A stretch of 64,000 bases of DNA from Trypanosoma brucei (taxonomy: Eukaryota). The translations under genes and the position numbers were made by a program. Positions within the stretch are counted from its first letter, which is position 1. Each line of letters starts with the position of its first letter. Under the pieces are notes generated by a model. The model worked only from the letters and a program-made list of their open reading frames with translations, made no database searches and had not been told where the DNA came from. Positions 2,060 through 21,434 of this stretch are shown piece after piece. The stretch is from NCBI GenBank assembly GCA_000002445.1, contig CP000067.1, forward strand, positions 1,056,001-1,120,000. Direction: 5' to 3'.

Positions 2060-3138
2060 GTTTTCAACTGTACATAAAACAAACATATGGGATAGTAATA
2101 GTTGCGGGGTGATGACAAGTGAGGTGTGATGAGAATACCAACCGCTGGAAGAACCACGCAGAACACTACACAAATGCACACACGTATATGTGTATGTGTA
2201 AAAGAACAAATATTCTTTTATTTTAAGAGAGAGAGAGAGGGGGGGGGGAACATCCAGACCATTTCAGAATTTGTACCAACACTCCAAGTGCCGCCGGTTT
2301 GCGTACCGTATGCCGCTGAGAGTTACCTGCGCACGACTGTCCTGTCGTCACACAAAGATTTGGAGAAAAGAACAGCGGGTAAAGAGGAGTCGGCATCGCT
2401 AGTGTTTCCGTGCAAGGCAAAAGAAAAAAAAACGGGAAAGAAAACAACAACAAGCAAACACAAAAGAAGGGAAAACGTCATGCGACCGCAAACCGCCAAG
2501 CGGAAAGGGGGACTCCGCACGACGGTTAAATGAATTAATTATCAGCGGTGTTCGCGCAATTCATTAAATTATTGAAAAGTGGGGATTCGTGCAACCTGTC
2601 ATTTTTGTTTTTTGTGACGCGTAGTTTGTCACTCAACAAGTAATATGACATATTTTTGTGTGTGCCATGTGACTTTCCTTGAAACTACGAAGGGGAAGAA
2701 GGGTTCAGAATTCTCAATTTGTGTAAATAAATGAACTAATCAGAGGAAAAAAAAAGGGGAAACAGGGAAGAGATAATAATAATAAAAGAACCGCCACAAT
2801 TCCGTGGCTTAAAGCTGAGCAGGTGACAGACATATGCGAGGGTTATGCAGTGATAGAAAAAAAAATAGCAGTCCGCAGTGGGAGCGCACACCTGGTCAGA
2901 AAAAAAAGTAAAATAAAGAAATAAAAAGAAAATTAGCCCTTTCCGAATTTCTCAACGCCCACTCAAAGTTGTGGAGTGTACTGGGCAAAAATAAAATAAA
3001 AGACAAAAAGTAGATAAATACAACAACAAGCACACCAATAAATAGGAGGGAGAGCAAAAGAAATCAGAAAAAAAATTAGGGAAAAACATTGAGGAGGAAA
3101 ATGACGGTGACGAGTGGGGGAATATGAAACAAAGAGAA

Positions 3139-3158
3139 TATATATATATATATATATA
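3139..3158. repeat. (TA)10 microsatellite in the intergenic part of array unit 1
   Basis: Direct count in the sequence 'aatatatatatatatatatatagg'. Confidence 0.9.
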
Positions 3159-3788
3159 GGAATGACACGCATATTTTTTTTTTTTCATTTTCCCTTTTGA
3201 CACTCCACTCAAATCATTCGCTCTTTTCGTCCCCTCACCCGATCGCCATCATTAACCAAACTTTGATATCGCAGGCTGTGAAATTGCTCAAGACCGGACA
3301 AAACGAGGGAAAATAAAACAAAAAAAAATAGAAAGTTGAGAAAGGTGTTGACACCACACATTATATTAAATACAAAAAAAACAATGAACGATGCTCATCA
3401 CAGTGGTCAGGATACCTGCCAGTGGTGCACGATGGAAAGAAGTCCATGCGAAGGCCTTCCTCTACTTTTTTCCCTCTTTCGAAACGCATTATTACTCATT
3501 TAAAAGACATTAACAACAATAACAACAACAAAATAATTACAAAGATATTATTTTTTAAAGTTAAAAAGAAACTAGGGTAGGGTAGAGAGGAAAACGAAAC
3601 AAAACAAGCATAAGAAAGGTGATAGCATACAGTTGTGACCACTTTACCTTAAATAGAAATTTACTTTCTCTTTATATCTTGTTACACCCAGGGGCTTAGT
3701 GGGAAATAAGCACTTTCTCAGCTCTTGTCAGCGCCTCAAACTTAAGAATTGAGTCCGCCGCATGCTGGCACTTACGTTTAGTTTATGT

Positions 3789-5159
3789 TCATCCCCTGAC
3801 GGTATCCAAAATGGTGGAGCCGGTGCCGAACACAATAAGAAACACACCGCACAGCAGCACCACATAAGTCGTAATGTAATATAAGGGCCCAACTTTCTGC
3901 CATGTGAAGCCCCCTGAGTACATAATCAACAACGCGGGGAAGACGAAACCCAGTGAACCACCACACACAGATCCGGCAATACCAAACACGGTGGTGATCT
4001 TCGGGATGAATATACTCAAAAGCAAAACAAGGAACGACAGTGTAATGACTGACACGCAATGCTTCCAAAAGGGTAGAGAATCCGCAGTCTTCCCAACGAC
4101 GTCATACAATGCATTACGACACGCCATAGCAACTAGGGCATAGGATACGCATAGTTTGATAACGACGCCAATCATACCAACCATTACAGCCGGCTCCTTT
4201 ACGGGGTCGTACATAAGCAAAATAGAACTGGTTGCGGTCTTACCAAAGTCCATGTAACCGAAAAAGGCAGTGATTATGTACATTATACAGCAAAGGGTAT
4301 TGGCAATGATGGCCGCAATAACAAACTTACGTACTGAACGATCCTTCATGTCAATATAAACTTCGTACGCTGTAATCTGCGATATGAATGCGAACATAAA
4401 TACTCCCATTCCCTCAATGGCCTGGAATCCGCTGTTGAATAGGATGATTTCGGCATCTTCGCTCTTGGTCACACTAACATTCTTTATATTCTCCGACAAG
4501 CCATTCATGCACGAGTGCACAACGATCACAATGACAAAATACACCATGAAGGTAACGGCAAAAGTGGAGACGTACCGAAGGGAGTCGATGTGACGCGGAA
4601 TCGTCAGTGGAAGCATAAAACATGCCCAAACCACCGCCATGAGAAGACGATTACCTGATTTTTCCTTCAGGAAGTCCGGCGCATTTGTGCCTTTCAAAAT
4701 GGCAGACAAAATATCTCCCACTGAAATCACGTAGGCAACACAACCACTAAAACCGAGTAGCGCTCGAATACCAGCAAGAACATACGCAGCCCCGCGGCCG
4801 AGAAGTGCGCGAGTTGCCCTCTCGAAGGTGGGGGCTCCTGAGCGGTCGGCTGCGACTGAGAGGTTGTGCATCGTGAAAACCGTTACGGAAGAGATGAAAA
4901 TGAGGTAAAACATTCCCATGATAAGGCCGGTACTGTTGGCCGCCGGAGGCATCCCGAAGATTCCCGCACCGATTGTTGTTGACGCCATGTTAAAAGCACT
5001 GGCCGCAATGCCACCCGGAGGCAAAACAGTGGCGACGCACAAACTCACCTTCGTAAAGAATGTGTTTCGCCCCTTCTTCACGTTATCTTCGGTCTGCACC
5101 GGTTCATTGGAGAGGTTGTTTGGCGTTTGCACTTCTTGTTGTTGCTTGGAGTTGCTCAT
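3789..5159 (-). CDS. Amino acid transporter (AAAP/AAT family), array copy 1. The track ORF runs to 5465; start proposed at the internal ATG (MSNSKQQQ...).
   Basis: Multi-TM protein with motifs typical of trypanosomatid AATs (GGIAASAFNMASTTIGAGIFGMP..., 10-11 hydrophobic segments). The extension from 5160 to 5465 is hydrophobic/low-complexity read-through with no counterpart in the paralog at 13244-14659. 'cat' at 5157-5159 was verified. Confidence 0.75.
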   Translation of the reverse strand: MSNSKQQQEVQTPNNLSNEPVQTEDNVKKGRNTFFTKVSLCVATVLPPGGIAASAFNMASTTIGAGIFGMPPAANSTGLIMGMFYLIFISSVTVFTMHNLSVAADRSGAPTFERATRALLGRGAAYVLAGIRALLGFSGCVAYVISVGDILSAILKGTNAPDFLKEKSGNRLLMAVVWACFMLPLTIPRHIDSLRYVSTFAVTFMVYFVIVIVVHSCMNGLSENIKNVSVTKSEDAEIILFNSGFQAIEGMGVFMFAFISQITAYEVYIDMKDRSVRKFVIAAIIANTLCCIMYIITAFFGYMDFGKTATSSILLMYDPVKEPAVMVGMIGVVIKLCVSYALVAMACRNALYDVVGKTADSLPFWKHCVSVITLSFLVLLLSIFIPKITTVFGIAGSVCGGSLGFVFPALLIMYSGGFTWQKVGPLYYITTYVVLLCGVFLIVFGTGSTILDTVRG

Positions 5160-6459
5160 TGCGTCTTGCAGTCGATTAGCACTTTTAGGGACTTCTTTTA
5201 CCCACAGAGTTTCGGGAACAAAAGGATGAAAGAGAAAGAGCATGAGGAAGTGATGTGCAAGGAAAGTTAGATATGCACAAGTTGGTGCGTACCATGTCTG
5301 AAAGTTTATTGAAGAAGATGCAAGCACACACCTGGAGAGACGCAAATGACGTTCGCCTCCCTTCGTTTTGTGCTTGAGCTGTGCAGCAGTTGCCCCGATG
5401 ATTGTAATGCACACGAGGTGATTTCCATACCAACGTTGAATAGAGTTGTTTGAGGGCAAATTCACTTGCCACTGGAGTTACAAACGCATAAAGTCGTTTC
5501 GGCATGCTAGTGATTGTTTGCTCACGTTTCTTGTCGATTGCGCCACTTCTTCAGTACCATACGACTTCATGCGAGATGAAGAGCGGGGAAGACTTCTGCA
5601 AGACAAAACTTAAAATGTTGCAGTGCTTTGAAGCAGAGTGGACATACACATAACTTTGCTCCTTGATACCACAGCTAGGAACGCAGCGCCCCAAAGTTAT
5701 GAATTACATATGAACTTGATGCACTTGATGGAAGCGGCACCGCGTGAATGCCACTACTGAAAGTGTATGAAAGGAAAGAAAAGACAATAAGAATATTAGG
5801 GGAAAGAACAAAGAAGGGGTTAATGTTTCGCAATTACCATTTAACCTAGTGGTATACCTGAGATAATAAAATCAGCGGTGCACCGAAAGAAACGCTGCAC
5901 AGCCTGAGCACCGAGGGAGGAAGTTGAGGTAAAAAGAAAAAAAAAGAAACCATAAAACAAAAAAGAAACCGAAAGGGACCCTCGAATGGTATCGCAGAAG
6001 CAGCATTTGGAGATGAGTGGACGCATGGAGTCGGCAAACTTGACGGTTTTACCACCGCTTTATTCAACGGCAATGGAGCCACCGCCTCCAGCCGCATCGC
6101 ATAATACGGCCAAATCACTGCAATTCGCACCTCCGCTTGTTGTATTTTCTAATCGGCGGACGTAACGAGGGAAAAACGATGGGACCCCAACGAGATGACA
6201 ACGACAAAAGAAAAAAAAGTAAAATAAAGAAATAAAAAGAAAATTAGCCCTTTCCGAATTTCTCAACGCCCACTCAAAGTTGTGGAGTGTACTGGGCAAA
6301 AATAAAATAAAAGACAAAAAGTAGATAAATACAACAACAAGCACACCAATAAATAGGAGGGAGAGTAAAAGAAATCAGAAAAAAAATTAGGGAAAAACAT
6401 TGAGGAGGAAAATGACGGTGACGGGTGGGGGAATATGAAACAAAGAGAATATATATATA

Positions 6460-6477
6460 TATATATAGGAATGACAC
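6460..6477. repeat. (TA)9 microsatellite in array unit 2
   Basis: Direct count; same flanking sequence as unit 1 ('caaagagaa...ggaatgacacgc'). Confidence 0.9.
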
Positions 6478-7097
6478 GCATATTTTTTTTTTTTCATTTT
6501 CCCTTTTGACACTCCACTCAAATCATTCGCTCTTTTCGTCCCCTCACCCGATCGCCATCATTAACCAAACTTTGATATCGCAGGCTGTGAAATTGCTCAA
6601 GACCGGACAAAACGAGGGAAAATAAAACAAAAAAAATAGAAAGTTGAGAAAGGTGTTGACACCACACATTATATTAAATACAAAAAAAAACAATGAACGA
6701 TGCTCATCACAGTGGTCAGGATACCTGCCAGTGGTGCACGATGGAAAGAAGTCCATGCGAAGGCCTTCCTCTACTTTTTTCCCTCTTTCGAAACGCATTA
6801 TTACTCATTTAAAAGACATTAACAACAATAACAACAACAAAATAATTACAAAGATATTATTTTTTAAAGTTAAAAAGAAACTAGGGTAGGGTAGAGAGGA
6901 AAACGAAACAAAACAAGCATAAGAAAGGTGATAGCATACAGTTGTGACCACTTTACCTTAAATAGAAATTTACTTTCTCTTTATATCTTGTTACACCCAG
7001 GGGCTTAGTGGGAAATAAGCACTTTCTCAGCTCTTGTCAGCGCCTCAAACTTAAGAATTGAGTCCGCCGCATGCTGGCACTTACGTTTAGTTTATGT

Positions 7098-8468
7098 TCA
7101 TCCCCTGACGGTATCCAAAATGGTGGAGCCGGTGCCGAACACAATAAGAAACACACCGCACAGCAGCACCACATAAGTCGTAATGTAATATAAGGGCCCA
7201 ACTTTCTGCCATGTGAAGCCCCCTGAGTACATAATCAACAACGCGGGGAAGACGAAACCCAGTGAACCACCACACACAGATCCGGCAATACCAAACACGG
7301 TGGTGATCTTCGGGATGAATATACTCAAAAGCAAAACAAGGAACGACAGTGTAATGACTGACACGCAATGCTTCCAAAAGGGTAGAGAATCCGCAGTCTT
7401 CCCAACGACGTCATACAATGCATTACGACACGCCATAGCAACTAGGGCATAGGATACGCATAGTTTGATAACGACGCCAATCATACCAACCATTACAGCC
7501 GGCTCCTTTACGGGGTCGTACATAAGCAAAATAGAACTGGTTGCGGTCTTACCAAAGTCCATGTAACCGAAAAAGGCAGTGATTATGTACATTATACAGC
7601 AAAGGGTATTGGCAATGATGGCCGCAATAACAAACTTACGTACTGAACGATCCTTCATGTCAATATAAACTTCGTACGCTGTAATCTGCGATATGAATGC
7701 GAACATAAATACTCCCATTCCCTCAATGGCCTGGAATCCGCTGTTGAATAGGATGATTTCGGCATCTTCGCTCTTGGTCACACTAACATTCTTTATATTC
7801 TCCGACAAGCCATTCATGCACGAGTGCACAACGATCACAATGACAAAATACACCATGAAGGTAACGGCAAAAGTGGAGACGTACCGAAGGGAGTCGATGT
7901 GACGCGGAATCGTCAGTGGAAGCATAAAACATGCCCAAACCACCGCCATGAGAAGACGATTACCTGATTTTTCCTTCAGGAAGTCCGGCGCATTTGTGCC
8001 TTTCAAAATGGCAGACAAAATATCTCCCACTGAAATCACGTAGGCAACACAACCACTAAAACCGAGTAGCGCTCGAATACCAGCAAGAACATACGCAGCC
8101 CCGCGGCCGAGAAGTGCGCGAGTTGCCCTCTCGAAGGTGGGGGCTCCTGAGCGGTCGGCTGCGACTGAGAGGTTGTGCATCGTGAAAACCGTTACGGAAG
8201 AGATGAAAATGAGGTAAAACATTCCCATGATAAGGCCGGTACTGTTGGCCGCCGGAGGCATCCCGAAGATTCCCGCACCGATTGTTGTTGACGCCATGTT
8301 AAAAGCACTGGCCGCAATGCCACCCGGAGGCAAAACAGTGGCGACGCACAAACTCACCTTCGTAAAGAATGTGTTTCGCCCCTTCTTCACGTTATCTTCG
8401 GTCTGCACCGGTTCATTGGAGAGGTTGTTTGGCGTTTGCACTTCTTGTTGTTGCTTGGAGTTGCTCAT
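7098..8468 (-). CDS. Amino acid transporter (AAAP/AAT family), array copy 2, identical at protein level to copy 1
   Basis: Identical 558-aa ORF in the track at 7098-8774. The same internal-start logic applies (8774 minus 306 = 8468). Confidence 0.75.
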   Translation of the reverse strand: MSNSKQQQEVQTPNNLSNEPVQTEDNVKKGRNTFFTKVSLCVATVLPPGGIAASAFNMASTTIGAGIFGMPPAANSTGLIMGMFYLIFISSVTVFTMHNLSVAADRSGAPTFERATRALLGRGAAYVLAGIRALLGFSGCVAYVISVGDILSAILKGTNAPDFLKEKSGNRLLMAVVWACFMLPLTIPRHIDSLRYVSTFAVTFMVYFVIVIVVHSCMNGLSENIKNVSVTKSEDAEIILFNSGFQAIEGMGVFMFAFISQITAYEVYIDMKDRSVRKFVIAAIIANTLCCIMYIITAFFGYMDFGKTATSSILLMYDPVKEPAVMVGMIGVVIKLCVSYALVAMACRNALYDVVGKTADSLPFWKHCVSVITLSFLVLLLSIFIPKITTVFGIAGSVCGGSLGFVFPALLIMYSGGFTWQKVGPLYYITTYVVLLCGVFLIVFGTGSTILDTVRG

Positions 8469-9759
8469 TGCGTCTTGCAGTCGATTAGCACTTTTAGGGA
8501 CTTCTTTTACCCACAGAGTTTCGGGAACAAAAGGATGAAAGAGAAAGAGCATGAGGAAGTGATGTGCAAGGAAAGTTAGATATGCACAAGTTGGTGCGTA
8601 CCATGTCTGAAAGTTTATTGAAGAAGATGCAAGCACACACCTGGAGAGACGCAAATGACGTTCGCCTCCCTTCGTTTTGTGCTTGAGCTGTGCAGCAGTT
8701 GCCCCGATGATTGTAATGCACACGAGGTGATTTCCATACCAACGTTGAATAGAGTTGTTTGAGGGCAAATTCACTTGCCACTGGAGTTACAAACGCATAA
8801 AGTCGTTTCGGCATGCTAGTGATTGTTTGCTCACGTTTCTTGTCGATTGCGCCACTTCTTCAGTACCATACGACTTCATGCGAGATGAAGAGCGGGGAAG
8901 ACTTCTGCAAGACAAAACTTAAAATGTTGCAGTGCTTTGAAGCAGAGTGGACATACACATAACTTTGCTCCTTGATACCACAGCTAGGAACGCAGCGCCC
9001 CAAAGTTATGAATTACATATGAACTTGATGCACTTGATGGAAGCGGCACCGCGTGAATGCCACTACTGAAAGTGTATGAAAGGAAAGAAAAGACAATAAG
9101 AATATTAGGGGAAAGAACAAAGAAGGGGTTAATGTTTCGCAATTACCATTTAACCTAGTGGTATACCTGAGATAATAAAATCAGCGGTGCACCGAAAGAA
9201 ACGCTGCACAGCCTGAGCACCGAGGGAGGAAGTTGAGGTAAAAAGAAAAAAAAAGAAACCATAAAACAAAAAAGAAACCGAAAGGGACCCTCGAATGGTA
9301 TCGCAGAAGCAGCATTTGGAGATGAGTGGACGCATGGAGTCGGCAAACTTGACGGTTTTACCACCGCTTTATTCAACGGCAATGGAGCCACCGCCTCCAG
9401 CCGCATCGCATAATACGGCCAAATCACTGCAATTCGCACCTCCGCTTGTTGTATTTTCTAATCGGCGGACGTAACGAGGGAAAAACGATGGGACCCCAAC
9501 GAGATGACAACGACAAAAGAAAAAAAAGTAAAATAAAGAAATAAAAAGAAAATTAGCCCTTTCCGAATTTCTCAACGCCCACTCAAAGTTGTGGAGTGTA
9601 CTGGGCAAAAATAAAATAAAAGACAAAAAGTAGATAAATACAACAACAAGCACACCAATAAATAGGAGGGAGAGTAAAAGAAATCAGAAAAAAAATTAGG
9701 GAAAAACATTGAGGAGGAAAATGACGGTGACGGGTGGGGGAATATGAAACAAAGAGAAT

Positions 9760-9783
9760 ATATATATATATATATATATATAG
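9760..9783. repeat. (TA)12 microsatellite in array unit 3
   Basis: Direct count; same flanks as units 1 and 2. Confidence 0.9.
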
Positions 9784-10411
9784 GAATGACACGCATATTT
9801 TTTTTTTTTCATTTTCCCTTTTGACACTCCACTCAAATCATTCGCTCTTTTCGTCCCCTCACCCGATCGCCATCATTAACCAAACTTTGATATCGCAGGC
9901 TGTGAAATTGCTCAAGACCGGACAAAACGAGGGAAAATAAAACAAAAAAAATAGAAAGTTGAGAAAGGTGTTGACACCACACATTATATTAAATACAAAA
10001 AAAACAATGAACGATGCTCATCACAGTGGTCAGGATACCTGCCAGTGGTGCACGATGGAAAGAAGTCCATGCGAAGGCCTTCCTCTACTTTTTTCCCTCT
10101 TTCGAAACGCATTATTACTCATTTAAAAGACATTAACAACAATAACAACAACAAAATAATTACAAAGATATTATTTTTTAAAGTTAAAAAGAAACTAGGG
10201 TAGGGTAGAGAGGAAAACGAAACAAAACAAGCATAAGAAAGGTGATAGCATACAGTTGTGACCACTTTACCTTAAATAGAAATTTACTTTCTCTTTATAT
10301 CTTGTTACACCCAGGGGCTTAGTGGGAAATAAGCACTTTCTCAGCTCTTGTCAGCGCCTCAAACTTAAGAATTGAGTCCGCCGCATGCTGGCACTTACGT
10401 TTAGTTTATGT

Positions 10412-11782
10412 TCATCCCCTGACGGTATCCAAAATGGTGGAGCCGGTGCCGAACACAATAAGAAACACACCGCACAGCAGCACCACATAAGTCGTAATGT
10501 AATATAAGGGCCCAACTTTCTGCCATGTGAAGCCCCCTGAGTACATAATCAACAACGCGGGGAAGACGAAACCCAGTGAACCACCACACACAGATCCGGC
10601 AATACCAAACACGGTGGTGATCTTCGGGATGAATATACTCAAAAGCAAAACAAGGAACGACAGTGTAATGACTGACACGCAATGCTTCCAAAAGGGTAGA
10701 GAATCCGCAGTCTTCCCAACGACGTCATACAATGCATTACGACACGCCATAGCAACTAGGGCATAGGATACGCATAGTTTGATAACGACGCCAATCATAC
10801 CAACCATTACAGCCGGCTCCTTTACGGGGTCGTACATAAGCAAAATAGAACTGGTTGCGGTCTTACCAAAGTCCATGTAACCGAAAAAGGCAGTGATTAT
10901 GTACATTATACAGCAAAGGGTATTGGCAATGATGGCCGCAATAACAAACTTACGTACTGAACGATCCTTCATGTCAATATAAACTTCGTACGCTGTAATC
11001 TGCGATATGAATGCGAACATAAATACTCCCATTCCCTCAATGGCCTGGAATCCGCTGTTGAATAGGATGATTTCGGCATCTTCGCTCTTGGTCACACTAA
11101 CATTCTTTATATTCTCCGACAAGCCATTCATGCACGAGTGCACAACGATCACAATGACAAAATACACCATGAAGGTAACGGCAAAAGTGGAGACGTACCG
11201 AAGGGAGTCGATGTGACGCGGAATCGTCAGTGGAAGCATAAAACATGCCCAAACCACCGCCATGAGAAGACGATTACCTGATTTTTCCTTCAGGAAGTCC
11301 GGCGCATTTGTGCCTTTCAAAATGGCAGACAAAATATCTCCCACTGAAATCACGTAGGCAACACAACCACTAAAACCGAGTAGCGCTCGAATACCAGCAA
11401 GAACATACGCAGCCCCGCGGCCGAGAAGTGCGCGAGTTGCCCTCTCGAAGGTGGGGGCTCCTGAGCGGTCGGCTGCGACTGAGAGGTTGTGCATCGTGAA
11501 AACCGTTACGGAAGAGATGAAAATGAGGTAAAACATTCCCATGATAAGGCCGGTACTGTTGGCCACCGGAGGCATCCCGAAGATTCCCGCACCGATTGTT
11601 GTTGACGCCATGTTAAAAGCACTGGCCGCAATGCCACCCGGAGGCAAAACAGTGGCGACGCACAAACTCACCTTCGTAAAGAATGTGTTTCGCCCCTTCT
11701 TCACGTTATCTTCGGTCTGCACCGGTTCATTGGAGAGGTTGTTTGGCGTTTGCACTTCTTGTTGTTGCTTGGAGTTGCTCAT
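10412..11782 (-). CDS. Amino acid transporter (AAAP/AAT family), array copy 3, with a single A-to-V substitution
   Basis: The ORF at 10412-12088 differs from copies 1 and 2 only at GMPPVANSTG versus GMPPAANSTG. This is a g-to-a change at ~11565 on the plus strand ('ggccaccgg' versus 'ggccgccgg'). Confidence 0.75.
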   Translation of the reverse strand: MSNSKQQQEVQTPNNLSNEPVQTEDNVKKGRNTFFTKVSLCVATVLPPGGIAASAFNMASTTIGAGIFGMPPVANSTGLIMGMFYLIFISSVTVFTMHNLSVAADRSGAPTFERATRALLGRGAAYVLAGIRALLGFSGCVAYVISVGDILSAILKGTNAPDFLKEKSGNRLLMAVVWACFMLPLTIPRHIDSLRYVSTFAVTFMVYFVIVIVVHSCMNGLSENIKNVSVTKSEDAEIILFNSGFQAIEGMGVFMFAFISQITAYEVYIDMKDRSVRKFVIAAIIANTLCCIMYIITAFFGYMDFGKTATSSILLMYDPVKEPAVMVGMIGVVIKLCVSYALVAMACRNALYDVVGKTADSLPFWKHCVSVITLSFLVLLLSIFIPKITTVFGIAGSVCGGSLGFVFPALLIMYSGGFTWQKVGPLYYITTYVVLLCGVFLIVFGTGSTILDTVRG

Positions 11783-13243
11783 TGCGTCTTGCAGTCGATT
11801 AGCACTTTTAGGGACTTCTTTTACCCACAGAGTTTCGGGAACAAAAGGATGAAAGAGAAAGAGCATGAGGAAGTGATGTGCAAGGAAAGTTAGATATGCA
11901 CAAGTTGGTGCGTACCATGTCTGAAAGTTTATTGAAGAAGATGCAAGCACACACCTGGAGAGACGCAAATGACGTTCGCCTCCCTTCGTTTTGTGCTTGA
12001 GCTGTGCAGCAGTTGCCCCGATGATTGTAATGCACACGAGGTGATTTCCATACCAACGTTGAATAGAGTTGTTTGAGGGCAAATTCACTTGCCACTGGAG
12101 TTACAAACGCATAAAGTCGTTTCGGCATGCTAGTGATTGTTTGCTCACGTTTCTTGTCGATTGCGCCACTTCTTCAGTACCATACGACTTCATGCGAGAT
12201 GAAGAGCGGGGAAGACTTCTGCAAGACAAAACTTAAAATGTTGCAGTGCTTTGAAGCAGAGTGGACATACACATAACTTTGCTCCTTGATACCACAGCTA
12301 GGAACGCAGCGCCCCAAAGTTATGAATTACATATGAACTTGATGCACTTGATGGAAGCGGCACCGCGTGAATGCCACTACTGAAAGTGTATGAAAGGAAA
12401 GAAAAGACAATAAGAATATTAGGGGAAAGAACAAAGAAGGGGTTAATGTTTCGCAATTACCATTTAACCTAGTGGTATACCTGAGATAATAAAATCAGCG
12501 GTGCACCGAAAGAAATGCTGCACAGCCTGAGCACCGAGGGAGGAAGTTGAGGTAAAAAGAAAAAAAAAGAAACCATAAAACAAAAAAGAAACCGAAAGGG
12601 ACCCTCGAATGGTATCGCAGAAGCAGCATTTGGAGATGAGTGGACGCATGGAGTCGGCAAACTTGACGGTTTTACCACCGCTTTATTCAACGGCAATGGA
12701 GCCACCGCCTCCAGCCGCATCGCATAATACGGCCAAATCACTGCAATTCGCACCTCCGCTTGTTGTATTTTCTAATCGGCGGACGTAACGAGGGAAAAAC
12801 GATGGGACCCCAACGAGATGACAACGACAAAAGAAAAAAAAGAAAACAAAAGAATTTGAGCAGGAATTTTTTTGGGAAAAAGAGATGAAATTTGCTTCAC
12901 ATGTTGTAAAGATCAAGTACTTTAATCGTTCCACAATGCAGTGGCGAAGTAAAAGATGAAAGAAGACCTACCACCAAACCAATGAAAAAAGAACCGAAAG
13001 TGGTCCGCTCATTCGCTACCACTGCGGCAGCAAAAAAAGAGGGAAAATGAGTGGAATGCGAAAGGGTGGAGACAACTGTTGCCGAAAGAGTGAAGACACG
13101 TTGGTGGCGGTTAACTATCCTCCGCTGCGTTCAATGGTAATAGGCAGATAAGTAACAAAACATCTGATTTATTTATTTACTTATTTACTGACTCTCCTCC
13201 TTTACCTCCTTTTTTTCTTCAATAGGAACTTCAAAGCCGCCGG

Positions 13244-14659
13244 TTAACCAGTTATAGTGCCCCATATACTTGCACCCGTGCCGAAAACAATGCCTACAAC
13301 ACCACAAATTAGTAAAACATATGTCGCAAGATAATGTAAAGACCCAACTTTCTGCCATGTGAAGCCCCCTGAGTACATAATCAACAACGCGGGGAAGACG
13401 AAACCCAGTGAACCACCGGTAATCGAGCCAGAAAAACCAAGGACGGTATTAACATTGGGAATGAATAGACCCAAAAGCAGTGCAGCAGTGGACAGCACGA
13501 TGACTGACACGCAATGCTTCCAAAAGGGTAGAGAATCCACATTCTTCTCTGCAATGCTGTACAATGCATTACGACACGCCATAGCGAGCAGCGCATACGA
13601 AGCAACCAGCTTTACAAGCACGCCAATCATACCAACCATTACAGCCGGCTCCTTTACGGGGTCGTACATAAGCAAAATAGAACCGGAAACAGCACGACCA
13701 AAGTCCATGTAACCGAAAAAGGCAGTGATTATGTACAGCGCAGTACACAGGGACATGGCAATGATGGCCGCAATAACAAACTTACGTACTGAACGATCCT
13801 TCATGTCAATATAAACTTCATACGCCGTGTCCTGACAAGTGTAGGAAAACATAAATACTCCCAACCCTTCAATGGCTTCATTCCCGCTATTAAAGAGAAT
13901 GATGGCAGCTGTATCACTCTTTCCAACACTAACATTCTTTATATTCTCCGACAAGCCATTCATGCACGAGTGCACAACGATCACAATGACAAAATACACC
14001 ATGAAGGTAACGGCAAAAGTGGAGACGTACCGAAGGGAGTCGACGTGACGCGGGATCGCCAGTGGAAGCATAAAACATGCCCAAACCACCGCCGTGAGAA
14101 GACGATTACCTGATTTTTCCTTCAGGAAGTCCGGCGCATTTGTGCCTTTCAAAATGGCAGACAAAATATCTCCCACTGAAATTACGTAGGCAACACAACT
14201 CGTAAAACCATCAAGCGCTCGAAGAACAGCAATGGCATAAGCAACTCTACGACCCATGAGGACAAATGTTACGCTTTCATATGTGGGTGCTTTGGAGCGG
14301 TCCGCTGCGAGGGCGAGATTACGCATGGAATAGATAGTCATGCAACTAATAAAAAAGAGGTAAAACATTCCCATGATAAGTCCACTGCTGCCGGCCGATG
14401 ACGGCAAGCCAAAGATGCCAGCGCCCAGCGTTGTCGCTGCGATGTTGAAGGCACTGGCGATTGTACCTCCGGGAGGGATGAATGCAGCAAATTGTGTGCT
14501 CTGCTCACCAGGAGGTTGCTTCCCTGATTGGGGTTCGTTTGATTGAACATTTTGACTGGTTTCACAGTTTCCAACGTTATTATTGACAACGGTGTGACCG
14601 ATCGGCTCGAAACAATTGTGAGGTACGGTGTTGCTTGTATTTTCTCTGGCAATACACAT
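13244..14659 (-). CDS. Amino acid transporter (AAAP/AAT family), a divergent mosaic paralog immediately downstream of the array
   Basis: 471-aa ORF. The central region is identical or near-identical to the array copies (for example FAVTFMVYFVIVIVVHSCMNGLSENIKNVSV and YEVYIDMKDRSVRKFVIAAIIA). The N-terminal 60 aa and the C-terminal 70 aa have diverged. Confidence 0.8.
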   Translation of the reverse strand: MCIARENTSNTVPHNCFEPIGHTVVNNNVGNCETSQNVQSNEPQSGKQPPGEQSTQFAAFIPPGGTIASAFNIAATTLGAGIFGLPSSAGSSGLIMGMFYLFFISCMTIYSMRNLALAADRSKAPTYESVTFVLMGRRVAYAIAVLRALDGFTSCVAYVISVGDILSAILKGTNAPDFLKEKSGNRLLTAVVWACFMLPLAIPRHVDSLRYVSTFAVTFMVYFVIVIVVHSCMNGLSENIKNVSVGKSDTAAIILFNSGNEAIEGLGVFMFSYTCQDTAYEVYIDMKDRSVRKFVIAAIIAMSLCTALYIITAFFGYMDFGRAVSGSILLMYDPVKEPAVMVGMIGVLVKLVASYALLAMACRNALYSIAEKNVDSLPFWKHCVSVIVLSTAALLLGLFIPNVNTVLGFSGSITGGSLGFVFPALLIMYSGGFTWQKVGSLHYLATYVLLICGVVGIVFGTGASIWGTITG

Positions 14660-15095: not shown

Positions 15096-16661
15096 TTACC
15101 GAAAGGCGACAATACAAATGTTTTCTCCTGTTACACTCGACTCGGCGTACTGACAAAGATAGGTCCGCCGGAATCCACTTTGTTTTAAGTATTCAAGCCG
15201 GAAAGCGTCAATTACTCTTTTACAACACATACCTGTGAGGCGTCGCTCAGCATCCACAGCTTCTCCACTCACTGCCCAAGAAGACATGGAAGTTATTGCG
15301 GCGAACTCTCTCTCACTAAACGTATGGTTGGTACCAGGAATCGCGATTCGGCCCCTGCGACACTCGCTCGGGGATAACAAGGCATTTATATGCTTCAATT
15401 CACAGCGTTGGTGACAGCATGTAGCGAAGACAACGGCACACACAGAGGCAAACCCTTCCGTGTTAAGATTAGGTGCTGTAACGCACGAGAGAGCAAAGTC
15501 TGTGCATGCTCCACAAAGGTGTTTGCCGACGGCCACCCACTGTTCTTCCACCGACACTGACTGCTTGATGGCGTTTGTGCATTGATCGGATGTACTGCTT
15601 GTTTCCTCTCTGGACCGTTTACATGTGGACGCACCACATAGTGCTTTTGCCAAATCAAGGTCCTTTATATTGATGCGCAATCGAACGAGCGGAAGGCGAC
15701 TGTTTCGAACACACGCATCGGCTTTGCGCCGGAAGTTATCCATATCTACAACTACAATACGCGGAAAGCCTCCATTGTCAGCACTAAGGGCCTCATTCAC
15801 GGCTGTCCGCCCTTCCTTTCTCTCCTGAAATCCGGGATGACTATGACAATACCGGATAGACCCTGAAAGCAAAGCATCCTGCAACGAAACAGCGAGACCA
15901 GCTTTGCCTGCACCTAATTCAAGGAAACCGGCTATTCTAACATATGTGTTTCCAAGATTCCCCCGCCCCTCGGCGTAACCGCGGATGACCGTCTGCACGC
16001 AACGAAGCAAAGCCCTGTGCTGCGGCCCATGTTTGTTGGAAATTCGTCGCGTTGACCCTGTGCTGCTGTTATCTTGAAAGGGCTCCTGACATTCCTCCGC
16101 AAGAAGGACAATCCGTGGCTGGATAACATTAAAGTAGCACTCCCTTACGCGTGTGATGAGGTCCTCCAAAACCACCGTGTCCATATGATGATGTGTGAAG
16201 CGTTCCTTTTCCGATTCCTGGGAAGTGACACAGTAGGCCACGCCTTTGCACGCATGTAGGTCCTTGCTATAGTATGGGAGCTTGTCAACAACAAAGCGTA
16301 GATCAGGACATACCTTTACGTGCTTTTGCAATTTATCGGCATAAACAGTGTGGTTTGGGTTGATGGGACACGGGACCCGCTGGAGGGCGCGTGAAGGTCC
16401 CGTAGAAACGCCCTCACCAGCAGTTCTCCCCGGGCCAACGGCTGAGCCCGAGCTGCTCAAAACGACAGCAGGTGTTGTTTCCCCCGTTGTGGTGCCGTTC
16501 ACATCGTGAGTGGGACAATAGCGCCCACCGGCTCGTTTGGCCGTGCGACAGAACCGGCGCTTGTGCGAGAGGTAAAAATCGCATGCCACAGCGTCAGGGT
16601 TATGAGTGGGGCGCATTTGTCCCTTTCCGGTCCCTTCGCCTTCCTGAGTTGTGGCATCCAT
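15096..16661 (-). CDS. TRM13-like tRNA 2'-O-methyltransferase (CCCH plus CHHC zinc fingers plus methyltransferase domain)
   Basis: N-terminal CDFYLSHKRRFCRTAKRAGGRYCPTHD fits a TRM13-type CCCH finger. CPINPNHTVYADKLQKHVKVC fits a U11-48K/CHHC finger. Downstream LELGAGKAGL fits SAM-binding motif I. The architecture matches the TRM13 family. Confidence 0.6.
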   Translation of the reverse strand: MDATTQEGEGTGKGQMRPTHNPDAVACDFYLSHKRRFCRTAKRAGGRYCPTHDVNGTTTGETTPAVVLSSSGSAVGPGRTAGEGVSTGPSRALQRVPCPINPNHTVYADKLQKHVKVCPDLRFVVDKLPYYSKDLHACKGVAYCVTSQESEKERFTHHHMDTVVLEDLITRVRECYFNVIQPRIVLLAEECQEPFQDNSSTGSTRRISNKHGPQHRALLRCVQTVIRGYAEGRGNLGNTYVRIAGFLELGAGKAGLAVSLQDALLSGSIRYCHSHPGFQERKEGRTAVNEALSADNGGFPRIVVVDMDNFRRKADACVRNSRLPLVRLRINIKDLDLAKALCGASTCKRSREETSSTSDQCTNAIKQSVSVEEQWVAVGKHLCGACTDFALSCVTAPNLNTEGFASVCAVVFATCCHQRCELKHINALLSPSECRRGRIAIPGTNHTFSEREFAAITSMSSWAVSGEAVDAERRLTGMCCKRVIDAFRLEYLKQSGFRRTYLCQYAESSVTGENICIVAFR

Positions 16662-19382: not shown

Positions 19383-21434
19383 TCACTGTTTCCCGTCAGA
19401 TACATCAAGTGTCACTTGACGCCCAATCATTGATGAGTCCGTTGCGGCCACGACGCGTGTGAGCACCGCCGTCCCATGTTCGTTGAAGGAAAGCGGTGAG
19501 AACATAAAGGACCCGAGGTCGTTAAACCACAAAACCCAATTATGGTGCCGCCACACGGTACGGCGGTGGGTGATGGATATCAATGAGATGCCCAACTGCT
19601 TGCACATGCTGTACAACCGCTCCTCTATCTCAATATCCATGTTGCTGCTGCACTCGTCAAGTACGGCAAAGTGCGGCCGGTGGTAAAAGAGACGCGCAAT
19701 CGCGAGTTTCTGCATTTCGCCTAACGACAGCAGACCGTCAGACCACGAGAAGACGGTGTCCCACGTGATGTGCGGCCTTGAGAGTATGTCTTCCAGCTTG
19801 GCCATTTCAAGACATTCGTACAGCATGGACTCACTCACTTCGAGTTCTGATAATTGCTTCGGGTACGTAATTTGACTGCGCAGCGTGCCACAGGGGACAT
19901 ATGGTCTTTGTGGTACGTAGTAGATTTGATCCATACGAGGCTTTACAATACGACCACCATGAAGCGGCCAGAGCCCAGCCAGAAGCCGTAACAAAGACGA
20001 CTTACCGCAACCGTTGGCGCCAACAATGAGGAGATTCATTCCTGGTTTCACGTGCAGCGTCAGTCCCCGGCACAACATTTCGTTGGTTGGGAGAATAATG
20101 GGCACATTCTCAAATGCTATGTAGTCGCCACGCACGATCTCACCAGCACTGCCCTTCGGAGCGTCGTCCAGTGCTCGTCTACTCGTCCGTTGAACCTCCG
20201 TAGCGTGTTGAATGCTTTCTTGGAGCTCGTAAATTTCGTCAGTTAAGGAGCGCAAGACAAAAAATCCCCTGCAATTCCTCACAAGTCCACCAATCCCCTG
20301 CGAAAGCTTCATGAAAACGTAAGAAGTCTCTGCAAAGAGAGCAAGGAGATCTTGTCCGCTCGTCGCCTCCGTATTCCTGGAGAGGACAACTCCCAAACAC
20401 ACGAAGTTACTCAGTATCCTCGAGCCGTACTTCAGGAATAAATTTTCCATCAAACCATAACGCCCCTGCACAAATGCTGCCCGACTCCTATGCTGCACAA
20501 TCGACTCGAGATATTGATTCATGAGATTTCTGTGAAACAGTTGTCCTTTGGACATCACTAACTCCTCCGCGTATTTCAGCAGTCGGTTATGCGCAGTGAT
20601 AAGGGTACCTTCGCGGCTGAGCTGCTCCGCAACAAGGCCTTCCATATCGGGAGAAAACTTTTGGGCAATAGCTACAAATAATGCGTAGTAGCCAATCACC
20701 ATTGCTAGCGTTCGTGACCCACTGGTGGAACCCACCTTGTACGAAAAGGCGACAATGTTGATTAGTGGTTCCAGGATAGACGTGAAAAACCCCGCGACGT
20801 TTCTGGACCAGCTTGCGACGTGTCGTGTAATGCGTTCGTCAATGTTTTTTACCGAGTGCGAGCTAGCGACGGCAAAGAAGACATCATTGTTAAGATAAAT
20901 GCGATGCAAGTGATGGGCCAGGTTAGACTGCAACCGCAGACCCAGCATTCCTACGCAGTACCTCAAGGTTGTGTTCGCTAATGCAACGGGAGCAAACCAG
21001 CACAATAGCAATCCAACGACGCGCACCACCGTAGCGGGGTTGCCGCTTATAGCACTTTTGTCCACCGCCGCTGCAACGCTGGTGATACGTAACGATAGAA
21101 ATGTCCTCGAAATGAGGAGGAGAGAAATTATCATCAGCATTCCACTTTCCCGTGAACGAATGGACGGAATGGCAATCTCAAGTAAGGCAAGAAAGCGCCG
21201 GACTGCTGCAGCAAACGACTGAACTTTCACCTTGTCCTGTGCTTGCGCTTCCTTCCCGTTCACACTGCTCGCTGGTTTTGATCTTTCAGCCTTCAGTGGG
21301 AGCGGTTTGTTAGACCGCAACCCTGCAGAGGCTGCAAGTATAGCAGCAACGCCGCCAGTCAACATGCATGCGCACAACTCGTGGTTTCTGCTCCTAGACG
21401 CGATGTATTCCTTGCATAGCTCAAACACTGTCAT
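19383..21434 (-). CDS. ABCD-subfamily ABC half-transporter (peroxisomal/glycosomal type, GAT-like)
   Basis: N-terminal TMD followed by an NBD with Walker A GANGCGKSS and signature LSLGEMQK. The ABCD-specific Walker B region 'ARLFYHRPHFAVLDECSSNMD' compares with ABCD1 '[21 protein letters not shown]'. The 683-aa length fits trypanosome GAT half-transporters. Confidence 0.8.
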   Translation of the reverse strand: MTVFELCKEYIASRSRNHELCACMLTGGVAAILAASAGLRSNKPLPLKAERSKPASSVNGKEAQAQDKVKVQSFAAAVRRFLALLEIAIPSIRSRESGMLMIISLLLISRTFLSLRITSVAAAVDKSAISGNPATVVRVVGLLLCWFAPVALANTTLRYCVGMLGLRLQSNLAHHLHRIYLNNDVFFAVASSHSVKNIDERITRHVASWSRNVAGFFTSILEPLINIVAFSYKVGSTSGSRTLAMVIGYYALFVAIAQKFSPDMEGLVAEQLSREGTLITAHNRLLKYAEELVMSKGQLFHRNLMNQYLESIVQHRSRAAFVQGRYGLMENLFLKYGSRILSNFVCLGVVLSRNTEATSGQDLLALFAETSYVFMKLSQGIGGLVRNCRGFFVLRSLTDEIYELQESIQHATEVQRTSRRALDDAPKGSAGEIVRGDYIAFENVPIILPTNEMLCRGLTLHVKPGMNLLIVGANGCGKSSLLRLLAGLWPLHGGRIVKPRMDQIYYVPQRPYVPCGTLRSQITYPKQLSELEVSESMLYECLEMAKLEDILSRPHITWDTVFSWSDGLLSLGEMQKLAIARLFYHRPHFAVLDECSSNMDIEIEERLYSMCKQLGISLISITHRRTVWRHHNWVLWFNDLGSFMFSPLSFNEHGTAVLTRVVAATDSSMIGRQVTLDVSDGKQ

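What the first reader, a model, noticed from the sequence alone, without database searches (positions are those of the whole stretch)
13244..14659. Fourth AAT gene is a mosaic, with a central block near-identical to array copies and diverged termini
Nucleotide stretches such as 13921-14060 are essentially identical to array positions ~4481-4620, whereas both ends of the gene have diverged, including replacement of the N-terminal cytosolic domain. Patchy identity of this kind indicates segmental gene conversion between the array and this flanking paralog. The variable N-terminal cytosolic tail on a conserved permease core could alter regulation or substrate specificity.
Basis: partly seen in the sequence, partly recalled or inferred. 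Interest (0 to 1): 0.55.

Follow-up and report, generated by a model that had tools for sequence, protein, structure and literature searches.

The report
Ornithine transporter gene patched by neighbours
The fourth transporter gene is TbAAT2-4, the known ornithine/histidine transporter of Trypanosoma brucei: an old, distinct paralogue that the neighbouring three-copy array keeps partly overwriting by gene conversion, which is a familiar process in trypanosome gene arrays although I found no earlier description of it for this gene.

Summary
The gene at 13244-14659 (-) alternates between stretches 100% identical to the array copies and stretches about 62-70% identical. There are about ten identical runs, not one central block, and the quoted partner coordinates are 15 nt out of register.

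The window is T. brucei TREU927 chromosome 4. The gene is TbAAT2-4 (Tb927.4.4020), a characterised ornithine/histidine transporter.

Gene conversion is strongly supported:
- Over the 185 codons inside the blocks, dS against the array is 0, while the same codons give dS 1.12 against the chromosome 8 paralogue. Outside the blocks dS against the array is 2.25.
- The longest identical run is 118 nt, against a maximum of 58 in 10,000 shuffles.
- Informative sites outside the blocks favour (TbAAT2-4, TbAAT10-1)(array, TbAAT10-2) by 71:16:9.

The termini did not diverge and the N-terminal tail was not replaced. They are ancestral sequence of an old paralogue type that chromosome 8 and T. congolense also carry.

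Tracts differ between strains, always towards the array state, and carry strain-private array variants. Conversion is therefore recent, and in these tracts it runs from the array into TbAAT2-4.

This is a new instance of a well-known kind of event, of moderate interest.

The parts
13244..14659 (-). TbAAT2-4 (Tb927.4.4020) coding sequence, 471 aa. This is the 'fourth AAT gene', an F-type AAAP transporter.
   Evidence: The protein matches XP_844552.1 of T. brucei TREU927 exactly. The published TbAAT2-4 ORF primers match at 14633-14659 and 13244-13269. Pfam Aa_trans, E = 3e-47.
13926..14199 (-). Composite main conversion block (F4 aa 154-245; end of TM3, TM4, TM5). It is 269/274 identical to array positions 4471-4744.
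   Evidence: The five mismatches are at 14044, 14054, 14059, 14094 and 14183.
14357..14380 (-). Short identical run of 24 nt (aa 94-101) in the otherwise unconverted 5' third. This is the weakest of the runs.
13756..13819 (-). Identical tract, 64 nt (aa 281-301)
13697..13737 (-). Identical tract, 41 nt (aa 309-321)
13620..13683 (-). Identical tract, 64 nt (aa 327-346)
13560..13585 (-). Identical tract, 26 nt (aa 359-366)
13500..13538 (-). Identical tract, 39 nt (aa 375-386)
13343..13417 (-). Identical tract, 75 nt (aa 415-439)
14200..14659 (-). Unconverted 5' third: the disordered N-terminal tail (aa 1-44, pLDDT < 50) plus TM1-TM3. It is F-type and groups with TbAAT10-1 and T. congolense TcIL3000_10_13950.
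13820..13849 (-). F-type island FSYTCQDTAY (aa 271-280) at the TM6a/6b break. It is retained in TREU927, DAL972 and IVM-t1.
13472..13828 (-). Region that is mosaic in TREU927 but almost entirely array-type in T. b. equiperdum IVM-t1: three abutting identical runs of 79, 57 and 219 nt (aa 278-396), i.e. a strain-polymorphic conversion tract.
3789..5159 (-). Array copy 1 (TbAAT2, A-type), counted from the ATG at MSNSK. The reference annotation starts 28 codons upstream (484 aa).
7098..8468 (-). Array copy 2, identical to copy 1
10412..11782 (-). Array copy 3, which differs from copies 1 and 2 by 1 nt
2898..12854 (-). Extent of the 3309-bp tandem repeat: three units, each a coding sequence plus intergenic DNA, 99.3-100% identical.
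12855..13243 (-). 3' flank specific to TbAAT2-4, with no homology to the array 3' flank. Exchange is confined to the coding sequence, a non-crossover pattern.

Best explanation
The gene is TbAAT2-4, the chromosome 4 representative of an old 'F-type' AAAP transporter lineage. Its relatives are TbAAT10-1 on chromosome 8 and TcIL3000_10_13950 in T. congolense. Directly downstream lies an 'A-type' paralogue, related to TbAAT10-2 and TcIL3000_10_13960, which in this strain is amplified to three near-identical copies.

Repeated short-tract, non-crossover homologous recombination (non-allelic gene conversion) between these two neighbouring but anciently diverged genes has overwritten parts of the coding sequence. 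The result is about ten tracts of perfect identity. Between them lie islands of ancestral F-type sequence that are saturated at synonymous sites relative to the array.

Shown here:
- the mosaic, and that it is more than chance would give;
- synonymous identity inside the tracts only;
- opposite phylogenetic signals inside and outside the tracts;
- flanking DNA that stays distinct;
- tracts that differ between strains and carry strain-private array variants, which makes the recent events run from the array into TbAAT2-4.

Inferred, not shown:
- Older shared tracts may run in either direction.
- The 5' third (TM1-TM3) and the TM6 break stay unconverted for one of two reasons. Either low identity there cannot seed recombination, or selection keeps the ornithine/histidine binding site.
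For: 1. Identity of the gene: exact protein match to TREU927; the published ORF primers match both ends.
2. Mosaic.
3. Substitution rates:
- 185 block codons: dS = 0 against the array, but 1.12 against TbAAT10-1.
- 226 non-block codons: dS = 2.25 and dN = 0.32 against the array, but dS = 0.82 and dN = 0.11 against TbAAT10-1.
4. Informative sites: outside the blocks, type tree 71, locus tree 16, third tree 9; inside the blocks, locus tree 59 and type tree 0.
5. Synteny: on chromosome 8 the order is F-type, A-type, DnaJ, as on chromosome 4. T. congolense has both types; identity over aa 61-159 is 0.67-0.85 within a type against 0.56-0.71 across types.
6. Strain differences. DAL972 differs from TREU927 at 13 residues, and IVM-t1 differs from TREU927 at 32. 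Four of these (T55K in both strains, L304P and F320Y in IVM-t1) do not match the TREU927 array copy; every other change is to the array residue. F320Y does match IVM-t1's own array copy.
7. Strain-private variants shared by both genes of one genome: CCA>CCG at codon 199 in gambiense; TTT>TAT at codon 320 in IVM-t1. TGT>TGC at codon 362 is likewise in both IVM-t1 genes, though the gambiense array copy also carries it.
8. The flanks of TbAAT2-4 are not homologous to the array flanks.
9. The chromosome 8 pair has its own significant identical runs of 79, 74 and 61 nt, against a shuffle maximum of 51.
Against: - The direction of the older tracts shared by all strains is not resolved. F-like against A-like site counts are mixed, with only a weak switch inside the main block (Fisher p = 0.014).
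- In IVM-t1 two synonymous sites (codons 278 and 280) show the array taking the TbAAT2-4 state, so exchange is not strictly one-way.
- The strain comparison rests on three public assemblies plus one likely chimeric contig. Alleles are not phased, and array copy number may be collapsed in two of the assemblies.
- The 24-nt run at 14357-14380 could be chance or conservation.
Confidence: 0.9

Rival explanations
1. One reading: the fourth gene is a former array copy, or a recent duplicate. Its termini then diverged quickly and its N-terminal tail was replaced, while the centre stayed the same or was re-homogenised.
For: The gene is adjacent to the array and on the same strand. Overall nucleotide identity is 81%. 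Jackson 2007 treats the four genes as one array evolving in concert and derives the AAT2/10 loci from a 'monomorphic' ancestor.
Against: - Outside the blocks the gene is much closer to chromosome 8 TbAAT10-1 than to the array (dS 0.82 against 2.25; 71:16:9 informative sites).
- The N-terminal tail is homologous to the TbAAT10-1 tail (z = 8.1).
- The two-type locus exists on chromosome 8 and in T. congolense.
- 21 F-type-private residues are conserved in all three F genes.
Confidence: 0.04
2. No recombination: the identical blocks are simply the most strongly conserved transmembrane segments, under purifying selection.
For: The central region (aa 196-255) is highly conserved at the protein level in all six genes compared (0.83-0.93 identity across types).
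Against: - Synonymous sites are identical too: dS = 0 over 185 codons. The same codons have dS 1.12-1.24 against the chromosome 8 genes.
- The third-position run test is significant.
- Tract boundaries differ between strains.
Confidence: 0.01
3. Assembly artefact: reads from the near-identical array copies were mis-joined into the flanking gene, creating a chimeric consensus.
For: The T. equiperdum OVI contig ends 649 bp past a TbAAT2-4::array hybrid whose 3' flank is the array's. That looks like such a chimera. Macedo et al. note unresolved nucleotides in the old Lister 427 model.
Against: - The same backbone of blocks appears in three assemblies (TREU927, DAL972, IVM-t1), each with the gene's own flanks on both sides.
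- Macedo et al. amplified the ORF from Lister 427 with primers specific to both unconverted ends, and report that sequencing confirmed it against the TREU927 and Lister 427 genome sequences.
- An artefact would not produce about ten alternating in-frame switches shared between assemblies.
Confidence: 0.03
4. Unequal crossing-over (hybrid gene formation) rather than gene conversion produced the mosaic.
For: Unequal exchange clearly operates at this locus. The 3309-bp unit is amplified threefold, with its junction in an A-rich tract. The OVI hybrid, if real, would be a crossover product.
Against: A single crossover gives one switch point and transfers the flank. Here there are about 18 or more switch points, and both flanks remain TbAAT2-4-specific. 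Multiple non-crossover events, or patchy repair of long heteroduplex, are required.
Confidence: 0.02

Closest known systems
Partial gene conversion within T. brucei tandem arrays (Jackson 2007, BMC Evol Biol 7:54 and 7:26): 76 events in 21 arrays, including the AAT4, AAT7 and AAT9 transporter arrays
   Same: Same organism, same gene family and same mechanism. Short, biased, non-reciprocal tracts pass between neighbouring duplicates. A structurally distinct end copy with its own UTRs resists full homogenisation, which is the 'mixed dynamics' model in that paper.
   Different: For this array (AAT2Tb, or 'Tb26') those surveys list no conversion event, only 'unambiguous concerted evolution'. They also model the AAT2/10 ancestor as monomorphic. 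Here the locus proves to be anciently dimorphic, the fourth gene is a fine mosaic, and the tracts are polymorphic between strains.
The T. brucei phosphoglycerate kinase (PGK A/B/C) array and the THT1/THT2 hexose transporter array
   Same: These are the classic cases in which conversion between adjacent diverged isoforms produced chimeric genes while functionally distinct isoforms persisted. Both are cited (Le Blancq 1988; Bringaud and Baltz 1994).
   Different: Those cases involve one or a few large segments. Here there are about ten short tracts, with differences between strains shown directly. I did not read those two papers; the comparison rests on Jackson's summaries and on general knowledge.
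TbAAT2-4 and TbAAT10-1 ornithine transporters (Macedo et al. 2017, FASEB J 31:4649)
   Same: The gene in the finding is TbAAT2-4 itself. That paper already states that its closest homologue is TbAAT10-1 rather than a member of its own locus.
   Different: The main text of that paper does not contain the words conversion, chimera or recombination. The mosaic relationship to TbAAT2-1/2/3 is not discussed there.

Membership tests
TbAAT2-4 (Tb927.4.4020) of T. brucei | Sequence identity with the reference protein, and with the published cloning primers at both ORF ends | tested here: met
   Exact match to XP_844552.1 / AAZ10993.1. The ORF primers match at 14633-14659 and 13244-13269.
AAAP / Pfam PF01490 amino acid transporter (LeuT/APC fold) | Significant match to the Aa_trans profile over the full domain | tested here: met
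   E = 3e-47, 161.6 bits against a cutoff of 25.6, residues 65-465
AAAP / Pfam PF01490 amino acid transporter (LeuT/APC fold) | Eleven-helix LeuT-type fold with broken TM1 and TM6 | tested here: met
   AlphaFold model: pLDDT 88, pTM 0.84, helix breaks at residues 77-79 and 272-274. The top Foldseek hits are LAX3/AUX1, SLC38A9 and AdiC, probability 1.00, TM-score 0.6-0.8.
AAAP / Pfam PF01490 amino acid transporter (LeuT/APC fold) | Transport activity | not testable with these tools
   Reported by Macedo et al. 2017: high-affinity ornithine and histidine uptake in yeast, apparent affinity for histidine 20.5 uM
Non-allelic (interparalogue) gene conversion | Identical tracts longer than expected from the overall divergence | tested here: met
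   118 nt against a shuffle maximum of 58. Also significant on polymorphic sites only and on third codon positions only.
Non-allelic (interparalogue) gene conversion | Identity extends to synonymous sites inside the tracts, while the same sites diverge in other paralogues | tested here: met
   dS 0 against 1.12-1.24 inside the blocks; 2.25 outside
Non-allelic (interparalogue) gene conversion | Phylogenetic incongruence between tracts and the rest of the gene | tested here: met
   71:16:9 outside the blocks against 0:59:0 inside
Non-allelic (interparalogue) gene conversion | Non-crossover outcome: the flanks are not exchanged | tested here: met
   The gene's own 5' and 3' flanks are retained in TREU927, DAL972 and IVM-t1
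Non-allelic (interparalogue) gene conversion | Donor unchanged and recipient changed (direction) | tested here: inconclusive
   Recent strain-specific tracts run from the array into TbAAT2-4. Old shared tracts are mixed or unresolved. Two sites in IVM-t1 run the other way.
Recent tandem array copy evolving purely in concert | All copies of one genome cluster together along the whole gene and share the repeat-unit flanks | tested here: not met
   The repeat unit ends at 12854, 390 bp short of the gene. The 5' third and the islands group with TbAAT10-1.

The most novel reading that the evidence does not exclude
Selection holds a small set of F-type 'specificity islands' in TbAAT2-4 against a continuing flow of sequence from the array: TM1-TM3, the SYTCQD break of TM6, and parts of TM7-TM10. 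Where that flow wins in a given strain, the transporter's substrate range changes. Examples are the nearly continuous aa 278-396 tract in T. b. equiperdum IVM-t1 and the three extra tracts in T. b. gambiense. The differences in substrate range between TbAAT2-4 (ornithine, histidine, lysine) and ornithine-selective TbAAT10-1, and possibly strain differences in eflornithine or suramin sensitivity, would then trace partly to imported array sequence.
Probability: 0.15. Interest if true: 0.55.

Novelty: new member of a known kind. Interest (0 to 1): 0.35.

Why it matters
[quoted passage not shown] About 45% of its core codons are copies of a neighbouring gene. No substrate for that neighbour turned up in the papers I read. 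The imported portion differs between subspecies, so transport data from one strain may not carry over to another.
- **Locus history.** The ancestral AAT2/10 locus already held two gene types before the chromosome 4/8 duplication and before the brucei/congolense split. This corrects the published evolutionary model.
- **Reagents.** The published 'specific' RNAi fragment shares 132 nt of near-perfect identity with the array copies, and the qPCR amplicon lies wholly inside the shared block. Knock-down and expression data for TbAAT2-4 may therefore include TbAAT2-1/2/3.

Tried and rejected
- **Look-ups that found nothing.** DNA for the TREU927 chromosome 8 protein P0006 and for T. congolense P0011 is not on record. 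I used the chromosome 8 genes of T. b. equiperdum IVM-t1 (L002) for nucleotide tests and the congolense genes at protein level only.
- **Direction of the old tracts.** I compared the shared chromosome 4 state with TbAAT10-1 and with TbAAT10-2, block by block. No block reaches significance by itself. Only the 5' versus 3' contrast within the main block does (p = 0.014), so I left this open.
- **OVI gene set aside.** The T. equiperdum OVI gene is array-type from aa 189 to the stop. Its contig ends in the array 3' flank, so it may be an assembly chimera.
- **Rejected explanations.** Purifying selection alone fails on dS. A single unequal crossover fails on the number of switch points and the unexchanged flanks. 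Recent ectopic conversion from chromosome 8 as the source of the F-type islands fails because those islands are diverged from TbAAT10-1.
- **Literature.** Terms searched: the gene identifiers, TbAAT2-4, gene conversion. Nothing found describes this mosaic. The library is incomplete, so this is not proof that no description exists.
Full report
**What is at these coordinates**

All long ORFs in the first 20 kb of the window lie on the minus strand. Three of them, read from the MSNSK start codon, are 3789-5159, 7098-8468 and 10412-11782. They differ from one another by a single nucleotide. They belong to a 3309-bp tandem repeat that spans 2898-12854 at 99.3-100% identity.

The gene in the finding, 13244-14659, encodes 471 residues. 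It sits 390 bp beyond the end of that repeat. Its own 5' and 3' flanks have no homology to the array flanks.

Its protein matches XP_844552.1 of Trypanosoma brucei brucei TREU927 exactly, on a 1.59-Mb contig. In Jackson's classification the locus is AAT2Tb (Tb927.4.3990 onward, four genes), also called array 'Tb26'.

The published ORF primers for TbAAT2-4 (Tb427.04.4020) match the two ends of this ORF exactly. The 'fourth AAT gene' is therefore TbAAT2-4. Macedo et al. 2017 characterised it as a high-affinity ornithine/histidine transporter that affects eflornithine and suramin sensitivity (PMC5602898).

It is a standard AAAP transporter. The evidence:
- Pfam Aa_trans, E = 3e-47.
- AlphaFold model: pLDDT 88, eleven helices, breaks in TM1 and TM6, residues 1-44 disordered.
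- Best structural matches: LAX3/AUX1, SLC38A9 and AdiC.

**Checking the observation**

A codon-aware alignment with an array copy shows sharp alternation. Identical runs of at least 24 nt are listed below.

| Window coordinates | Length (nt) |
|---|---|
| 14357-14380 | 24 |
| 14095-14182 | 88 |
| 14060-14093 | 34 |
| 13926-14043 | 118 |
| 13756-13819 | 64 |
| 13697-13737 | 41 |
| 13620-13683 | 64 |
| 13560-13585 | 26 |
| 13500-13538 | 39 |
| 13343-13417 | 75 |

The composite main block 13926-14199 is 269/274 identical to 4471-4744. Elsewhere identity is about 60-75%.

In shuffles that keep the number of differences, the longest run averages 26 nt and never exceeds 58. The observed longest run is 118 nt (p <= 1e-4). 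The test is also significant when restricted to polymorphic sites or to third codon positions.

The true partner of 13921-14060 is 4466-4605 (133/140 identical). And there are about ten blocks, not one.

**Conversion or conservation**

| Codon set | Compared with | dS | dN |
|---|---|---|---|
| 185 block codons | array copy | 0 | 0 |
| 185 block codons | chromosome 8 TbAAT10-1 | 1.12 | 0.106 |
| 185 block codons | chromosome 8 TbAAT10-2 | 1.24 | 0.109 |
| 226 non-block codons | array copy | 2.25 | 0.32 |
| 226 non-block codons | chromosome 8 TbAAT10-1 | 0.82 | 0.11 |

The block codons are not under unusual synonymous constraint, because they diverge freely against the chromosome 8 genes. Purifying selection therefore cannot explain the blocks.

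**What the divergent parts are**

I fetched three related loci:
- The T. b. gambiense DAL972 chromosome 4 locus (L001).
- The T. b. equiperdum IVM-t1 chromosome 4 locus (L003).
- The IVM-t1 chromosome 8 locus (L002).

On chromosome 8 the gene order is phosphodiesterase, a 262-aa ORF, TbAAT10-1, TbAAT10-2, DnaJ. That parallels chromosome 4, where the order is phosphodiesterase ... TRM13, TbAAT2-4, array, DnaJ.

I call the two gene types F and A. The F type comprises TbAAT2-4, TbAAT10-1 and TcIL3000_10_13950. The A type comprises the array copies, TbAAT10-2 and TcIL3000_10_13960.

| Informative sites | (F4,F8)(A4,A8) type tree | Locus tree | Third tree |
|---|---|---|---|
| Outside the blocks | 71 | 16 | 9 |
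| Inside the blocks | 0 | 59 | 0 |

Further points tie the divergent parts to the F type:
- Over aa 61-159, identity within a type is 0.67-0.85, including the T. congolense proteins, and 0.56-0.71 across types.
- 21 F-private and 13 A-private residues are conserved in all three members of each type.
- The 61-residue N-terminal tail of TbAAT2-4 has the same length as the TbAAT10-1 tail and aligns with it at z = 8.1. Against the array tail z is 1.4.

The termini have therefore not diverged from an array-like ancestor, and the tail was not replaced. They are ancestral F-type sequence. The two-type locus predates both the chromosome 4/8 block duplication and the brucei/congolense split. This differs from the 'monomorphic AAT2/10 locus' in Jackson's Figure 5. 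It agrees with Macedo's remark that TbAAT2-4 is the closest homologue of TbAAT10-1.

**Evidence that conversion is recent and continuing**

TbAAT2-4 orthologues in other assemblies differ from TREU927 almost only at positions where they switch to the array state.
- DAL972 has three additional or extended tracts: aa 189-206, 260-266 and 368-374.
- IVM-t1 is array-type through almost all of aa 278-396, as three abutting identical runs of 79, 57 and 219 nt.
- In each of these assemblies the gene keeps its own flanks.

Strain-private variants are shared by both genes of the same genome. They are CCA>CCG at codon 199 in gambiense and TTT>TAT (F320Y) at codon 320 in IVM-t1. TGT>TGC at codon 362 is also in both IVM-t1 genes, though the gambiense array copy carries it too.

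The F-type islands lost in those strains match TbAAT10-1 and the congolense F gene in type, but are diverged from TbAAT10-1 at the nucleotide level. In TREU927 they are therefore ancestral, and the recent events run from the array into TbAAT2-4.

Two synonymous sites (codons 278 and 280) in IVM-t1 go the other way. For the old tracts shared by all strains the direction is unresolved. There is only a weak hint that the 5' half of the main block is F-derived and the 3' half A-derived (Fisher p = 0.014).

The T. equiperdum OVI gene is array-type from aa 189 to the stop. Its contig ends in the array 3' flank, so I treat it as a possible assembly chimera.

**Parallel cases**

The chromosome 8 pair has its own significant identical runs of 79, 74 and 61 nt, against a shuffle maximum of 51. 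They lie at positions equivalent to the chromosome 4 blocks.

The T. congolense pair shares locus-private residues in the same central region, where its identity is 0.92 over aa 160-244. Homogenisation of the TM4-TM5 region, with TM1-TM3 retained, has thus happened independently at three loci.

**Mechanism**

The most likely mechanism is repeated short-tract, non-crossover homologous recombination between adjacent paralogues. Patchy repair of longer heteroduplex would give the same pattern.

The tracts probably start in the stretches that are most alike, which makes the process self-reinforcing. That part is inference.

The regions that stay F-type in every credible assembly include TM1, TM2, most of TM3 and the S272-Y-T-C-Q-D277 break of TM6. 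In LeuT-fold transporters the TM1 and TM6 breaks, with TM3 and TM8, form the substrate site; this is established knowledge, not tested here. Selection for ornithine/histidine specificity is therefore a plausible second reason for the islands. I could not separate it from simple lack of homology.

**Comparison with what is known**

Partial gene conversion in T. brucei tandem arrays is well documented. Jackson 2007 lists 76 events in 21 arrays, including AAT4, AAT7 and AAT9. The PGK and THT arrays are classic examples.

For this array those surveys report only 'concerted evolution', with no conversion events. The main text of the functional paper on TbAAT2-4 does not mention conversion, chimeras or recombination. 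The gambiense genome paper's table of tandem arrays with subspecies-specific variation does not appear to include this array: its only two 'amino acid transporter' rows are chromosome 8 arrays.

This is therefore a new and well-resolved instance of a known phenomenon, not a new kind of thing.

**Practical consequence**

The published TbAAT2-4 RNAi fragment (14492-14068) overlaps the main block by 132 nt. The qPCR amplicon (14112-14012) lies wholly inside the block. Its reverse primer matches all array copies, and its forward primer differs from them by one base.

**Verdict**

- Observation: confirmed.
- Interpretation: partly supported. Gene conversion, yes; diverged termini and a replaced tail, no.
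- Novelty: new member of a known kind.
- Interest: 0.35.

Noticed in passing
window 12825-12854, 6202-6244, 2898-2928: The junction of the 3309-bp tandem duplication lies in an A-rich purine tract (AAAAGAAAAAAAAG(T/A)AAA...) that is present at both ends of the repeat. The unit coordinates overlap by about 23 bp. This suggests the array was amplified by unequal exchange between these low-complexity tracts.
   Followed up: partly
L001:12796-14250 and L003:12795-14249, compared with window 2898-12854: The T. b. gambiense DAL972 and T. b. equiperdum IVM-t1 assemblies contain a single array unit, where the window has three. This is either real copy-number variation or repeat collapse in those assemblies.
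   Followed up: partly
L004:10001-12065: The T. equiperdum OVI contig carries a hybrid: TbAAT2-4 up to about aa 188, then array sequence and the array 3' flank. The contig ends 649 bp after the stop codon. This is either an assembly chimera or a real fusion/deletion allele produced by unequal crossover.
   Followed up: partly
window 14068-14492 and 14012-14112: The published TbAAT2-4 RNAi fragment overlaps the block shared with the array copies by 132 nt. The published qPCR amplicon lies entirely inside the block: the reverse primer matches all three array copies exactly, and the forward primer differs from them by 1 nt. Cross-targeting of TbAAT2-1/2/3 is therefore likely.
   Followed up: partly
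L002:8001-9416 and L002:11244-12659: The chromosome 8 pair TbAAT10-1/TbAAT10-2 shows its own conversion tracts: identical runs of 79, 74 and 61 nt against a shuffle maximum of 51. They lie at positions equivalent to window 13937-14077 and 13647-13720.
   Followed up: partly
window 5160-5465 (and the equivalent stretch in copies 2 and 3): The array ORFs stay open well upstream of the MSNSK start used here: 558 aa from a GTG codon. The reference annotation uses an ATG 28 codons upstream (484 aa, MLFLFHPF...). Comparison with TbAAT10-2 does not settle which start is used.
   Followed up: no
window 599-2209, 15096-16661, 19383-21434, 22313-25171: The neighbouring genes are a DnaJ protein, TRM13-like, an ABC transporter and a phosphodiesterase. 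Their order matches the other chromosome 4 assemblies. DnaJ and the phosphodiesterase also flank the chromosome 8 transporter pair, which fits the known chromosome 4/8 duplication.
   Followed up: partly
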